This document shows, one piece after another, positions 15,001-18,943 of a DNA stretch of 18,943 bases. Position numbers: made by a program. Where the stretch lies: IMG/VR virus record IMGVR_UViG_2529293214_000009; one strand, given 5' to 3'. Source of the DNA: a virus (lineage: Duplodnaviria > Heunggongvirae > Uroviricota > Caudoviricetes). The stretch's first letter is position 1, and each line of letters opens with the position of its first letter.

Positions 15001-18000
15001 CATCGCTTTCGGGATCACTACCTTGCCACCTGATACCGCAAACGGATAGGCTGTGTTATCCGGATTATTCGGGTCAAAGACAAACAACTGCGACGCAGAA
15101 ATTGCAACCTGACTTACAGGCCTGCCTTCACTGTCTTTTCCGGCGACAATCCCGATCCCCGCAGTGATACCATCAACTCCCGCTTTTTTTGACCACATTG
15201 CAAGAAAAGCTTCACCGCCTTCTTTATCCAATTTAGTGATGCGCTTGTCGACCTCATTAAGCGATTCACTGGTTGACGAATCCAGTGTGCTAATGCGGGT
15301 TTCAATACCACCAATCGTTCTTGTCGTTTCTTCCCTGAGAGTCCCTACAACTTCGGTTGTCTTAATTGCAGCATCCTTTACAGCCTGCCCCTGCGCGTTT
15401 TTTATTTCTTTACGCAGCTCGGACACAACCGGCGACTTTGCAGCCTCATCGCGGATCTGGTCAATGATGGCCTTCACGCCGATCTGTGTTTGTGCCTGAG
15501 TGCCTTTTTCAGCATTCCATGGACCTTTCACTCCTGCCGCGTTAACAAAACGTATCCAGTAAAATCCCGACCAGCCAGGGTCAACCGGATCGCCGTAAAC
15601 CTGCCCCGGCGTCGTGGCAACCAGCACTGCATCAGCAAGGTCATCCTCCGTACCCCGCCAGATTTCAGTCAGTGAATGTCCGCGATAATTAGGCATATCC
15701 CATTCAAGAAGAACCGAGCCAAATCCACCGGTCGCCTTAAAATTCAGCGGTTTTGTGGGAAAATCAACAGTCATTAAAGTACTGTCAATCTCAATACCCG
15801 GATTCAGTGCATATGAGGCACCACCCGATGTTCGACGCCGGGCGAGTTTAAGACCAACCAGTTCCTCACGGGTCACAAATGCGTGACGTCCGTCACCACG
15901 CTGCCCGGTGCCAATTTCCATATTCTCCACAACAGTGGATAAATCCTTCCCCGCACGCCACGGTTTTCTGGTCATACCGGCATCTCCGACATTGATGTAC
16001 TCAGGGTTATTCGTTCCACCTGCCCGAATCCGGATACCATCACCTGCCAGTTTTGCCCGGTTGCTGCCGGAAGTCTCACCACACTTCCCTTAAACGTACC
16101 CGGCGCAAAATGAATCACAGGAACATCATCAGCCATAATGGTGATCCCCACCCGCTCAGGCGCCGGAGATTTCACCCTGATACAGGAAAAAGAGGTTCTT
16201 TCAGGTAATGAAAAAATTTTTGAATGCCACCTTATCGTGGAGGGCAGAGCCCCCCCGGCAAGCACTGACATTTTGTCTCCTGTCACCACGCGCATCATAT
16301 CTTTCGCGAGATCAACCCATGCGCAGTCAAACGGTGTACTGAGATAACGGATATCCATGTTCACCGGACTGAATACAAACACATCCTGCTTACCATCCGG
16401 TTTCGTGTAACAGGCAATGTATTCACCACGCCAGGGATAAGCCACAATGGAGGCCGGATTAAACTGACTCTGCCACTGTTCCGGTGAAACAATCTGTTCC
16501 GTCGCCAGCGCGACATTACCGTTTGCATCAACAGACACCAGGCCATTTGTTCCTGCATACAGCACAAAACCCTCCATCGCAACCATACTCCGCCTGCTCA
16601 GACACGCCTGCATTGAAGGGATTTTGGAACCAGAAATTGTGGACGGTGATACCCCACTGAACAAATAAGGCTCCCCCTTTGTCGCCACCACCAGTGACGT
16701 TCCCAGCGGACAGATAGCTACAATATCTTCTGCCGTCGTGTGACGATTCACTTCCGGCCATGCATACGGCAGATACGCTTCCGAAAACATCACTTCATTA
16801 CCGGCAAACCCGGCGGCAATACCGTTAGCCATCAGGCAAAGGCCTGTCATATTCTCTGGCGGCGGCAGGTAATCCCATGTCGCCAGGGAAGGCCCAAGGT
16901 TTTTCGCCGGTATTTTGTCCGTGTAACTGAGCACGGATGCATCCAGTTCAGCCACAAGTAAAAAATCCGCCTCCCCTCCACCTGATGCAGAGCGATAAAT
17001 CCGGCGACGTTTAATACTGGCATTCTGCAATGGCACCGGAGCCAGCGTCAGTTGTACCGCAGTTCCCGGAGTACGGAGTGTTACCTCCAGAGACGCCGGA
17101 CCTGGCGGACCTTCTTCACCATAATCTGAGACAAAGGTTTCCGTATAAAACCGGGTTTCATCATCATTCGGGTTATCGTCAGAAACATCACCGCCCTGCT
17201 GAACAGTACAGACAGGAGCTGTCGTCGGCGCGGGGATCCCCAGACGATACGATGATGTCGGGTGATTCCCGTCCCCTTTTGTGGCAATAGTCGCATCCGT
17301 CACTTTAGGAAAACGCCCGTCAGTGTAGTAAATACGCCCGTGGGGGTCCTGAGCGATCGGACTGCGGATCACATCCACCACATCCGGCCATGCAAACCAG
17401 AAATCGTCACGGTAATGAAAAATTGTTTTTGGCTTAATTGTGAATGTTTTCTCAACCCCGGATATCTGACGTTCTGGTGTAATAACACCAAACCGGAAAT
17501 GGCAGTCCTCCGCCAGTACAGCGGAATGCTCGGGCAGCATGGATGTCACAACGCGCGGCATCATCCCACGCATCGTGGTGATATCGATATAGGGCATAGA
17601 AATTCCTTTGACTGCTTCAGGCTTAAAAATCAGGGGATTTATGATGGAATTCGCTAAAATCGCGATCGGCATCACTGAAACAAAATGCCTTGCATGACAT
17701 TCTGATGATGACTAAATAACTTCATTGATTATTGCAATTTTCTTTCGGTTTGGGGGAGCATATTGCTCCCCTTTTTTCACTGCATTATCATTGCCGCTGT
17801 AGCAACGAGAAGCATCACTCCGCACACGCAAGATGTTTCACACTCACACCATACAGTCCATTTTTCGCCATTCCCGTATACAGAAAGCTATTCACTGTCT
17901 TCGTGTGAATTCCCATTTCACTGGCAAGGCGACATCATGTACCCCTTTCAATTTTTCCAGATTCAGCTGAATAAAACGGCGTCCCTGATACATACTGCGC

Positions 18001-18943
18001 ATTAAATGGCCCAACTGACTATCACAGATTATTAACCAGGATTCTTTACTATCCAGAATAATCCTGCGATTTTCCGGCATAAAAAACTCTTGAACCAGAA
18101 TTACACGGCATCCTTCACTCCATCGTATTAACATGTTTATTACTTCACTCTCTAATAACCCCCCCCTATACATGACAACAAAAACCGGAGCCGGGCTCCG
18201 GTTTTTGTGAAGCTGTCGGCTATTTCATCCCGCCAATATTTTCCCACGTCCCGTCAGCACGCAGGATTTGCAGCGGTCTTACCACACACTGTATCTGCTT
18301 TTTATCTGCATCCAGTATCACCACCTGTGTGATTACCCTGTCCTGCTCCGGAATAATGCCATTCTCATCTGACTCCAGAATGTCTGCCGGTCCCAGTCGC
18401 AGTTGTGCTGTAAGCGACTGCCCGTTTTCACAGTCATCATGCTTTCCGCAACCGCACAGACTCTGCATAAGCTTTCTCAAAATATTCATGTCATTCTCCT
18501 GTTCTGCCTGTATCACTGCCCACTTCATCCAGCCCCTTGACATCCTGCCACGGCCCGTCACCAAACCTGACCTGCAAATGCTGAAAAAAACCCTGAACCC
18601 GTGTGGCATCTTTGGGGTCAAGAAAGGTCAGTCCGGTGATGAGTGCGCCATCTGTATCCGGGAACCAGCCATGGCTGTTTGTCTCAATAATGTTTCCCGG
18701 CCCCAGACGGAACCGTATTTGCGTCTCCCCCGGGTCGCCCTTCGGCCCCTGAGGTCCGGTTGCCCCCACCGGGCCAGCCGCACCTGTTTCTCCTTTCGGT
18801 CCCTGTGGGCCTGCCGGGCCTGCCGGGCCTGCCGGACCAGCATCACCTGCCGGCCCCCTTTCACCGGTTGCCCCTGCCGGACCGGTGTCTCCACGCTCTC
18901 CTTTATCTCCCTTCGGCCCCTGAGGACCCGCGGGACCCGGTTC

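What the first reader, a model, noticed from the sequence alone, without database searches (positions are those of the whole stretch)
17598..18175. AT-rich islet with a rare-codon ORF inserted between the fibre module and the tail-tip genes
The islet composition differs sharply from the flanking genes, it is bounded by terminators, and it contains an 80-93 aa ORF rich in E. coli-rare codons. This pattern fits a horizontally acquired moron, possibly a small regulator or its remnant.
Basis: seen in the sequence. Interest (0 to 1): 0.45.

Follow-up and report, generated by a model that had tools for sequence, protein, structure and literature searches.

The report
Decayed regulator gene in Stx phage
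The AT-rich islet between the tail-fibre and tail-tip genes of this 933W-type Shiga-toxin phage is the broken, stitched-together remnant of a cargo gene for a response-regulator-like DNA-binding protein, so it is an evolutionary scar and very probably not a working gene.

Summary
The window is the late/tail region of a 933W-type Stx phage, with genes on the minus strand. The islet is real. Its GC is 41.0% against 51.4% for the window, the 3rd percentile of same-size windows. The 93-aa ORF (933W L0123, Phi24B vb_24B_38) has 10.8% rare codons against 4-6% in the large structural genes.

The ORF is not an intact gene. Alignment with intact relatives shows a chimeric pseudogene. The relatives are ORF-156 of the P-Eib prophages, a 156-aa gene in the same slot of phage PhiR5_2, and a 180-aa gene in EPEC E2348/69.
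- A 174-bp deletion between 9-bp repeats removed the leader, the start codon and 21 codons.
- Codons 22-81 come from one allele.
- A 112-nt frameshifting gap follows.
- Codons 119-157, the DNA-binding helix, come from another allele and lie out of frame.
- Only the tail of a downstream small membrane-protein gene (ORF-60) survives.

The intact family has no Pfam or NCBIfam match. It folds with pLDDT 90.7 as a receiver-like domain plus a LuxR/GerE-type helix-turn-helix.

Only one of the two hairpins terminates late-strand transcription. The other has its U-run on the opposite strand.

Near-identical copies have ORFs of 66-94 aa, and one carries an IS66-family insertion.

A working moron is not supported.

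The parts
18220..18489 (-). Flank: tail-fibre C-terminal gene (933W L0122). It is not part of the islet.
   Evidence: Pfam Phage_fiber_C, E 5e-36. Annotation in 933W and EDL933.
18178..18208 (.). Hairpin T2: an intrinsic-terminator-like stem (7 G/C-rich pairs extended by A-U pairs) with U-runs on both strands, directly after the tail-fibre gene. It travels with the tail-fibre 3' end in many lambdoid Stx phages.
   Evidence: RNAfold gives -21.7 and -22.2 kcal/mol. 94-98% matches to positions 18152-18219 in many long-tailed Stx phages, and annotated 'terminator' in phage 434 record OL657226. The consensus scan misses it, presumably because the A and U arms pair with each other (my inference).
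18116..18177 (-). Leftover non-coding leader of the regulator gene. It contains both annotated start codons of the '93/80-aa ORF' (ATG at 18173 and 18134) and a G8 tract (18159-18166) whose length varies between copies.
   Evidence: It aligns to the intergenic leader of the intact locus in Stx1a_PV02105 and E2348/69, where the same frame stops after 'MLIRWSEGCL'. The ORF-start differences (93/94/90 versus 80/77/66 aa) are; attributing them to the G-tract length is my reading of the allele lengths.
18107..18115 (-). Junction 1: a single copy of AAGGATGCC. Intact loci have two copies 174 bp apart. The deletion between them removed 113 bp of leader, the ribosome-binding site, the ATG and the first 61 nt of the gene.
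   Evidence: Repeat positions in L005 and L041 compared with the window; alignment A1.
17935..18106 (-). Regulator codons about 24-81 (receiver-like domain, strands beta2-beta4). They come from the PV02105/E2348-type allele and form the body of the annotated ORF. Codons 22-23 lie in the 9-bp repeat listed as junction 1.
   Evidence: tblastn: P0007 residues 21-96 match 18116-17898. For the whole codon 22-81 stretch (17935-18115): 94% nucleotide identity to PV02105 and 67% to the Eib type, with 6 nonsynonymous and 2 synonymous codon differences.
17892..18173 (-). The ORF as annotated (933W L0123; Phi24B vb_24B_38; phrog_2014). It is a deletion-made fusion of leader, codons 22-81 and 13 out-of-frame codons (VALPVKWEFTRRQ).
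   Evidence: RefSeq calls only a 62-aa version.
17815..17934 (-). Regulator codons 119-157 plus the stop codon (second and recognition helices of the HTH and the C-terminus). They come from the Eib-prophage-type allele and lie in a different frame from the upstream part. 112 nt are missing at the junction 17934|17935.
   Evidence: tblastn: P0018 residues 119-157 match 17934-17818 at 97% identity, frame -2 against frame -3 for the upstream part. 87% nucleotide identity to PhiR5_2 and P-EibA, 64% to PV02105. Junction positions.
17777..17821 (-). The last roughly 14 codons and the stop codon of the small membrane-protein gene ORF-60 (phrog_9340). The remaining roughly 141 bp are deleted.
   Evidence: Alignments A1 and A4; BLAST blocks; ORF-60 in PhiR5_2 and P-EibA.
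17752..17777 (+). Hairpin T1 (GGGGGAGCA-TAT-TGCTCCCC) followed by T6 on the plus strand only. It belongs to the short-tailed-phage backbone upstream of L0124, not to the cargo.
   Evidence: The stem is invariant in 16 sequence variants, including phages that carry cor instead. It is absent after orf-60A in P-EibA.
17598..17751 (-). Spacer and 5' leader of L0124 (backbone). Positions 17598-17668 are identical in phages with different cargo, and the rest exists in two alleles.
15972..17597 (-). Flank: L0124 (541 aa from the ATG at 17597, with an AAGGA ribosome-binding site). A virion protein.
   Evidence: phrog_511, E 2e-279; RefSeq start.

Best explanation
The islet is the decayed remnant of a cargo cassette that sits downstream of the tail-fibre genes in lambdoid and 933W-type prophages of pathogenic E. 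coli.

In its intact form the cassette encodes ORF-156 and ORF-60. ORF-156 is a 156-180-aa protein with a receiver-like N-terminal domain and a LuxR/GerE-type helix-turn-helix, so it is presumably a transcription factor (inferred from fold only). ORF-60 is a roughly 43-60-aa protein with one C-terminal membrane helix. The cassette often lies next to an Eib-type adhesin or an NleG effector gene.

In the 933W lineage three illegitimate events wrecked it.
1. A 174-bp deletion between two AAGGATGCC repeats removed the leader, the ribosome-binding site, the ATG and 21 codons. It fused upstream non-coding DNA in frame to codon 22.
2. A join between two different alleles left out 112 nt, covering codons 82-118. 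This separates the receiver-like part from the HTH and shifts the frame.
3. A deletion of about 141 bp removed most of ORF-60.

The '80-93-aa rare-codon ORF' is therefore an accidental fusion frame. It lacks the central beta1/alpha1 of the fold and the whole DNA-binding domain.

The low GC comes from two sources: the AT-rich allele that supplied the 5' half (44.6% GC when intact) and the non-coding spacers.

During lytic growth the islet is probably just read through as part of the Q-antiterminated late transcript. That step rests on established lambdoid biology and was not tested here.

Shown: homology, junctions, frames, fold of the intact family, allele variation. Inferred: loss of function, and the regulator function of the intact family.
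For: The window is 100% identical to 933W, VT2-Sakai and others over 17400-18400. The ORF is L0123 and vb_24B_38.

Homology searches:
- The ORF matches phrog_2014, E 3e-58, an 80-aa profile covered in full by ORF residues 14-93. I read that family as annotated copies of this same remnant.
- It also matches positions 20-84 of the 156-aa phrog_6585, E 2e-29.
- The intact proteins match phrog_6585 end to end.

Intact genes occur in three settings:
- PhiR5_2, in the same slot, after a YadA-anchor adhesin.
- Stx1a_PV02105 and E2348/69, after Phage_fiber_C plus the same hairpin, with an NleG gene following in PV02105.
- P-EibA, D and E, as orf-156.

The DNA alignment and tblastn give the three junctions and the two frames. 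The two halves have opposite nearest alleles: 94% versus 67% for the 5' half, and 64% versus 87% for the 3' half.

Fold of the intact family:
- The AlphaFold model has pLDDT 90.7 and pTM 0.86, with a beta-alpha-beta N-domain and four C-terminal helices.
- The top 47 Foldseek PDB hits are all two-domain response regulators (RcsB, FixJ, EvgA, StyR, DesR, NarL and others; all NarL/FixJ type except one KdpE), with best E 1e-3 and probability 0.99-1.0.
- The only profile hits in the PDB are GerE and LuxR proteins, E 0.3-0.65.
- In the viral structure library the top three hits are response regulators.

Signs of decay:
- Seven alleles of the islet at 99% identity or more give ORFs of 93, 94, 90, 80, 77 and 66 aa.
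- One copy carries an IS66-family insertion of about 2.7 kb.
- RefSeq calls only 62 aa.
- Roughly 150 of the 174 phage records that match carry the two-piece remnant, and 20 carry a copy covering at least 80%.
Against: The fusion ORF is still open in most copies.

Riley et al. 2012 assigned one immunoreactive expression-library clone (CM15, Phi24B 40137-40506) to this CDS. That could mean the product is made in lysogen cultures. However, the clone also carries the last 162 nt of the tail-fibre C-terminal gene, which neighbouring clones also hit.

The regulator function of the intact family rests on predicted fold only. Pfam GerE, NCBIfam and PADLOC give no hit, and the Foldseek E-values are marginal.

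The excess of nonsynonymous codon changes (6 against 2) is too small a sample to prove relaxed selection.

The conserved plus-strand hairpin T1 is not explained by this account.
Confidence: 0.82

Rival explanations
1. The 80-93-aa ORF is a real small protein, a domesticated fragment of the receiver-like domain. It would be expressed from the prophage or late in infection and might interfere with related regulators or host factors.
For: The ORF is open in most copies and is annotated in most phage records. PHROGs has a family for it (phrog_2014). CMAT clone CM15 was assigned to the Phi24B homologue.
Against: Both candidate start codons lie in DNA that is non-coding leader in intact loci. The first ATG directly abuts the terminator hairpin. 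No promoter-like site lies upstream.

The fragment lacks beta1/alpha1 and the last helix of the domain in the model, so it is unlikely to fold (inference).

The ORF's ends vary from 66 to 94 aa among copies at 99% identity or more, and one copy carries an IS66-family element.

The O157:H7 genomes listed show only one matching place each, so no intact partner is seen for a dominant-negative role.

Clone CM15 also contains tail-fibre coding sequence.
Confidence: 0.1
2. The functional element is an RNA on the plus strand, antisense to the late genes, that ends at hairpin T1 (17752-17777). This would be a small RNA, or an antisense transcript over the L0124 leader and start, comparable to other antisense small RNAs in the late region of Stx phages.
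For: T1 has a U-run only on the plus strand. Its stem is invariant across phages with different cargo. A published antisense small RNA, 24B_1, lies 5 kb away on the same strand at 12807-12826.
Against: - No plus-strand promoter-like site was found in 17300-18600.
- By eye, I found no promoter-like hexamer pair shared by the two spacer alleles listed.
- Rfam gives only sub-threshold hits, and those aligned are carried mainly by the hairpin.
- The stem shows no covariation because it never varies.
- The Hfq-crosslinking sRNA table of Tree et al. 2014 lists nothing near this part of Sp5 in the rows read. My estimate of the Sakai coordinate (about 1.285 Mb) is rough.
- T1 differs from the conserved 3' part of EcOnc03, the anti-sRNA sequence read.
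Confidence: 0.06
3. The ORF is a chance open frame in AT-rich intergenic spacer and has no gene ancestry.
For: There is no Pfam or NCBIfam hit. Different annotators predict different starts.
Against: Significant protein-level and DNA-level homology links two separate parts of the islet, in two frames, to intact 156-180-aa genes.
Confidence: 0.02

Closest known systems
ORF-156A/D/E of prophages P-EibA, P-EibD and P-EibE of E. coli ECOR-9 (GenBank AF151091, AF151675, AF151676; phrog_6585), with the adjacent ORF-60
   Same: The 3' fragment (17815-17934) is 87% identical in DNA to orf-156A. In protein it is 87% identical to the PhiR5_2/ORF-156A-type protein and 97% to its closest family member, P0018. 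The stop codon is at the same place as in P0018. The tail of ORF-60 follows in the same order. The Phi24B record already notes similarity to P-EibD.
   Different: The window copy is not a full gene. Codons 1-21 and 82-118 are missing, the two parts are in different frames, the 5' part comes from a different allele, and there is no eib gene next to it.
Unannotated 180-aa ORF downstream of the tail-fibre genes in EPEC E2348/69, O55:H7 and the long-tailed phage Stx1a_PV02105
   Same: The 5' fragment (17935-18115), the leader and hairpin T2 are 90-94% identical to this locus. The gene sits in the same position, directly after Phage_fiber_C.
   Different: That gene is intact. It has its own leader with both AAGGATGCC repeats and, in PV02105, is followed by nleG. 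RefSeq does not call it and marks only pseudogene fragments.
NarL/FixJ-type response regulators (RcsB, FixJ, EvgA, NarL) and the GerE/LuxR C-terminal HTH
   Same: The predicted two-domain architecture of the intact family is a CheY-like alpha/beta domain followed by a four-helix HTH. The best structural hits are all of this class, and there is weak profile similarity to GerE over the HTH.
   Different: - There is no significant sequence match: Pfam and NCBIfam give nothing.
- The N-domain is short, about 95 aa with four strands.
- The acidic pair after beta1 is replaced by invariant T7 and N9.
- An Asp (D52) is kept at the end of beta3.
- Only 36 cluster representatives were found among 1.84 billion proteins, and every source-named homologue is from E. 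coli.
Morons in the sense of Juhala/Hendrix, and the cargo slot after lambdoid tail-fibre genes (lom, cor, eib, T3SS effector loci)
   Same: It is extra DNA of deviant composition, set between conserved late genes, at a place where related phages carry different cargo.
   Different: There is no intact gene, no detectable promoter of its own, and no terminator of its own in the sense direction.

Membership tests
Moron (autonomous extra gene in a phage late region) | Lies between backbone genes at a place where related phages differ in content | tested here: met
   The same slot holds cor plus a fibre adhesin in Stx2-86, and an Eib-like adhesin plus ORF-156 plus ORF-60 in PhiR5_2. The backbone resumes at 17788.
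Moron (autonomous extra gene in a phage late region) | Base composition different from the neighbours | tested here: met
   41.0% GC against 51.4%, the 3.1st percentile of same-size windows.
Moron (autonomous extra gene in a phage late region) | Own promoter upstream and own terminator downstream of an intact gene | tested here: not met
   No promoter-like site lies upstream of the ORF, and 113 bp of leader are deleted. Downstream hairpin T1 has its U-run on the opposite strand. The gene is broken. A consensus scan cannot exclude a weak promoter.
ORF-156 family (phrog_6585) | Significant sequence similarity | tested here: met
   phrog_6585, E 1.9e-29. tblastn E 3.5e-22 and 9e-18 for the two pieces.
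ORF-156 family (phrog_6585) | Full-length single reading frame of about 156-180 codons with the family's own start | tested here: not met
   Only codons 22-81 and 119-157 are present, in frames -3 and -2. The start codon is deleted.
NarL/FixJ-LuxR type regulators (applied to the intact ORF-156 family) | C-terminal four-helix GerE/LuxR-type HTH | tested here: inconclusive
NarL/FixJ-LuxR type regulators (applied to the intact ORF-156 family) | N-terminal CheY-like receiver fold | tested here: inconclusive
NarL/FixJ-LuxR type regulators (applied to the intact ORF-156 family) | Phosphorylation site: acidic pair after beta1, Asp at the end of beta3, Thr/Ser after beta4, Lys after beta5 | tested here: not met
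   D52 at the end of beta3 is invariant. The position after beta1 holds invariant T7 and N9 instead of acidic residues, and there is no fifth strand. The domain looks like a pseudo-receiver.
NarL/FixJ-LuxR type regulators (applied to the intact ORF-156 family) | Binds DNA and regulates transcription | not testable with these tools
   The papers searched and read contained no experimental report on this family, including the Eib papers. Sandt & Hill 2000 was not available.
Intrinsic (Rho-independent) terminator | G+C-rich hairpin followed by a U-run on the transcribed strand | tested here: met
   T2 (18178-18208) meets it on both strands. T1 (17752-17777) meets it on the plus strand only. Termination activity was not tested.
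Prophage anti-sRNAs of EHEC (AgvB/AsxR/EcOnc03 class) | Conserved 3' region of about 42 nt with its own terminator; Hfq-bound; encoded downstream of PR' | tested here: not met
   The T1 region does not resemble the EcOnc03 sequence read. It is in the tail region, not at PR'. The rows of the Tree et al. table that were read list no peak nearby. Rfam gives no hit above threshold.

The most novel reading that the evidence does not exclude
The most novel reading not excluded has three possible parts.
- The islet may not be inert. The fusion ORF (vb_24B_38/L0123) could be translated in lysogens, as one CMAT clone hints.
- The invariant plus-strand hairpin T1 could end an antisense RNA over the L0124 start. 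The scar would then have been co-opted as a small regulator of phage or host.
- Behind it stands an uncharacterised family, seen mostly in E. coli. It pairs a pseudo-receiver LuxR-like protein (ORF-156) with a roughly 43-aa membrane peptide (ORF-60) and travels with Eib adhesins and NleG effectors. It may control their expression.
Probability: 0.1. Interest if true: 0.5.

Novelty: new member of a known kind. Interest (0 to 1): 0.25.

Why it matters
For 933W, VT2-Sakai and Phi24B, the best-studied Stx phages, this result replaces a 'hypothetical protein' carried in roughly 150 phage records and about 270 complete E. coli genomes. The replacement is a concrete statement: a chimeric pseudogene with mapped junctions. 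Annotation pipelines should mark it as such.

The work also shows that the slot between the tail-fibre module and L0124 is a cargo site shaped by illegitimate recombination.

It points to an intact but unannotated family (ORF-156 with ORF-60). RefSeq does not call the intact copy in EPEC E2348/69. The family has a response-regulator-like fold and sits next to adhesin and effector genes. That family, rather than the remnant in this window, is the part worth an experiment.

Tried and rejected
- **Psr regulators.** I first recalled the prophage PsrA/PsrB regulators as relatives. A review shows that they are AraC-type, so I dropped the idea.
- **Anti-sRNA of the AgvB/AsxR class or a Pas sRNA at T1.** Both the position and the sequence differ, and the Tree et al. 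rows read list no peak there.
- **Rfam.** Only sub-threshold hits, and the aligned ones (RsaOG, DapZ, psbA 3' UTR) are carried mainly by the hairpin.
- **Sequence family libraries.** Pfam, NCBIfam and PADLOC give nothing for the remnant or for the intact proteins.
- **Promoter scans of the intact leaders.** Uninformative.
- **Unavailable resources.** Sandt & Hill 2000 could not be read. The AlphaFold-database fold library was not available.
- **Plus-strand 80-aa ORF (17763-18005).** It has no family match and only 5% rare codons. It is the antisense shadow of the remnant.
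Full report
**Identity of the window**

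Positions 17400-18400 are 100% identical to phage 933W, VT2-Sakai, Stx2 phage I, Min27 and many other short-tailed Stx phages. The window is the reverse complement of the 933W late region, so all genes run on the minus strand. In 933W terms the gene order is L0121/L0122 (tail fibre), L0123 (the 93-aa ORF at 17892-18173), L0124 (15972-17597), L0125, L0126, L0127 and lom.
- L0122 is a Phage_fiber_C protein.
- L0124 matches a virion-protein family (phrog_511).
- L0125 is named 'phage tail tip fiber protein' by RefSeq.

**Check of the observation**

GC is 41.0% in 17598-18175 and 51.4% in the whole window. Only 3.1% of same-size windows are as low or lower, although 13384-13960 is lower still at 38%.

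Rare codons make up 10.8% of the ORF, against 4-6% in the large genes and 9-10% in some other small genes.

Two hairpins exist.
- T2 (18178-18208, about -22 kcal/mol) has U-runs on both strands and lies directly after L0122. Its homologue is annotated as a terminator in a phage 434 record.
- T1 (17752-17772, then T6) has a U-run only on the plus strand, antisense to the late genes. It lies 155 nt before the L0124 start, so it is not at the islet's edge.

**What the ORF is**

The ORF has no Pfam or NCBIfam match. It matches two PHROG families:
- phrog_2014, E 3e-58, an 80-aa profile covered in full by ORF residues 14-93. I read it as a family of annotated copies of this same remnant.
- positions 20-84 of the 156-aa phrog_6585, E 2e-29.

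A protein search found few relatives. Two of them continue into a stretch that reads like a LuxR-type HTH.

Intact genes were then found in three settings.
- **PhiR5_2.** This is a 933W-like phage. The same slot between the fibre genes and the L0124 homologue holds a 419-aa YadA-anchor (Eib-like) adhesin, a 156-aa gene and a 60-aa gene.
- **Stx1a_PV02105, EPEC E2348/69 and O55:H7.** A 180-aa gene lies directly after Phage_fiber_C and the same T2 hairpin. In PV02105 it is followed by nleG.
- **The Eib prophages of ECOR-9.** The genes are annotated orf-156A/D/E and are followed by orf-60.

The Phi24B record already notes that its copy (vb_24B_38) resembles a P-EibD protein.

**Anatomy of the remnant**

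- **18116-18177** is the leftover non-coding leader. Both annotated ATGs (18173 and 18134) lie in it, as does a variable G8 tract.
- **18107-18115** is one copy of AAGGATGCC. Intact loci have two copies 174 bp apart. The deletion between them removed 113 bp of leader, the ATG and 61 nt of coding sequence, and fused the leader in frame to codon 22.
- **17935-18115** holds codons 22-81. It is 94% identical to the PV02105/E2348 allele and 67% to the Eib-type allele.
- **At 17934|17935**, 112 nt (codons 82-118) are missing and the frame shifts.
- **17815-17934** holds codons 119-157 and the stop codon. It is 87% identical to the Eib-type allele and 64% to PV02105. This piece is the 33-aa 'MGIHTKTVNSFLYTGMAKNGLYGVSVKHLACAE' frame seen.
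- **A further deletion of about 141 bp** leaves only the last roughly 14 codons of ORF-60 (17780-17821), which end at T1.

From 17788 down to 17598 the sequence is shared, at about 83% identity, with phages that carry quite different cargo. That part, T1 included, is backbone. T1 is absent after orf-60A in the lambda-like P-EibA.

**Fold of the intact family**

I built an AlphaFold model from a 20-sequence alignment of the family. It has pLDDT 90.7 and pTM 0.86. It shows a four-stranded alpha/beta domain (residues 1-90) followed by four helices (residues 102-154).
- Foldseek against the PDB: the top 47 hits are all two-domain response regulators, nearly all of the NarL/FixJ type (RcsB, FixJ, EvgA, StyR, DesR, LiaR, NarL, DosR, VpsT). 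The best E-value is 1e-3 and probabilities are up to 1.0. TM-scores are low (0.3-0.46), which may reflect a different mutual orientation of the two domains.
- A sequence profile of the family finds only GerE and LuxR proteins in the PDB, at E 0.3-0.65.
- In the viral structure library the top three hits are response regulators.
- An Asp at the end of beta3 (D52) is invariant, but the acidic pair after beta1 is replaced by T7 and N9. The domain therefore looks like a pseudo-receiver.
- The family is very narrow. There are 36 cluster representatives among 1.84 billion proteins, many of them fragments, and every source-named homologue is from E. coli and called 'hypothetical'.

I found no experimental paper on the family, so 'regulator' is an inference from fold.

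**Is the remnant under coding selection?**

In the 15 near-full-length copies fetched there are 7 alleles, all at least 99% identical. Their longest ORFs are 93, 94, 90, 80, 77 and 66 aa. I attribute the differences to G-tract length changes at the 5' end and frameshifts or stops at the 3' end. One further copy carries an IS66-family element of about 2.7 kb inside the islet.

RefSeq calls only a 62-aa version. Against the nearest intact allele the 5' part has 6 nonsynonymous and 2 synonymous codon changes. That fits neutrality, but the sample is too small to prove it.

The fragment lacks beta1/alpha1 and the HTH, so I would not expect it to fold or to bind DNA (inference).

The O157:H7 genomes listed show a single matching place each, so no intact paralogue appears in the same cell.

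Counts:
- Of 174 phage records with a match, 20 have a copy covering at least 80% of the gene, and roughly 150 have the two-piece remnant.
- Of 5426 complete E. coli genomes, 185 have a copy covering at least 80%.
- 267 of the 5426 genomes carry the 933W-type islet nearly full-length.

**Caveat**

Riley et al. 2012 screened a Phi24B expression library with lysogen-specific antiserum. They assigned clone CM15 (40137-40506) to CDS 40345-40626, which is this ORF. However, the clone also contains the end of the tail-fibre C-terminal CDS, and neighbouring clones (CM22, CM11/12, CM21) hit the fibre genes. The signal may therefore belong to the fibre. I keep 'expressed small protein' as a rival at about 0.1.

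**The unexplained part**

T1 is invariant in stem across 16 sequence variants and is oriented to stop plus-strand transcripts. Four results bear on it.
- I found no plus-strand promoter-like site.
- Rfam gives no family match above threshold.
- The rows read from Tree et al.'s Hfq table list no sRNA near my rough estimate of this position in Sakai Sp5.
- The stem never varies, so it shows no covariation.
An antisense RNA ending there is possible but unsupported, at about 0.06.

**Verdict**

The feature is an ordinary kind of thing: a decayed cargo gene at a phage recombination hot spot. It has a clear, fully mapped history.

The modest new points are the chimeric two-allele structure, the deletion junctions, and the response-regulator-like fold of the unannotated intact family.

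Noticed in passing
window 12807-12826 (+): An exact 20-nt match to the sequence I recalled for the published phage small RNA 24B_1 (TAACGTTAAGTTGACTCGGG). It lies between lom (12966-13700) and the next late gene, on the strand antisense to the late genes. This agrees with the location given by Nejman-Falenczyk et al. 2015 (Phi24B 45711-45692, between lom and vb_24B_43). The sequence itself came from memory; the paper text I read gives only the position.
   Followed up: partly
window 17752-17777 (+): Hairpin T1 has its U-run only on the strand antisense to the late operon. The stem is invariant in all 16 variants examined, including phages with cor cargo. It is absent from the lambda-like P-EibA cassette. 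What it terminates is unknown.
   Followed up: partly
L041 5001-5543 (EPEC E2348/69-derived chromosome NZ_LT903847); also L042 and L008 (O55:H7): An intact 180-aa ORF of the ORF-156 family, identical in protein to the Stx1a_PV02105 copy, is not called by RefSeq. Only short 'incomplete' pseudogene fragments are annotated over it.
   Followed up: partly
L021 about 3771-6471: An IS66-family element of about 2.7 kb, with three ORFs of 225, 115 and 523 aa, is inserted inside a 933W-type copy of the islet.
   Followed up: partly
L005 2201-2260 and window 18308-18358 (-): The C-terminal extension of the 180-aa allele (HYSGAGQGNHAGGDTGC) matches the window's tail-fibre C-terminal gene region read in another frame. 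In PV02105 a second, partial Phage_fiber_C copy follows the regulator gene. The cassette is therefore flanked by tail-fibre repeats, which may serve as recombination substrates.
   Followed up: partly
window 18159-18166: A G8 tract (on the minus strand) lies just after the annotated ATG of L0123. Its length appears to differ between otherwise identical copies, which would switch the predicted ORF start between 93-94 aa and 80 aa.
   Followed up: yes
L004 2682-2864 (-), L009 2681-2809 (-), L011 5657-5839: ORF-60 (phrog_9340) is a 43-60-aa protein with a basic N-terminus and one C-terminal membrane helix. It always follows ORF-156. In the cor-cargo phages a related but apparently frameshifted version lies at the same place before T1. 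Its function is unknown, and PADLOC gives no hit.
   Followed up: partly
window 13384-13960: This is the most AT-rich stretch of the window (38% GC), at the lom/L0127 region. It is a second, larger compositional island.
   Followed up: no
window 18178-18208 and L005: The consensus terminator scan does not report hairpin T2, presumably because its A and U arms pair with each other and leave no free U-run after the extended stem. This is a blind spot of the tool for bidirectional terminators.
   Followed up: yes
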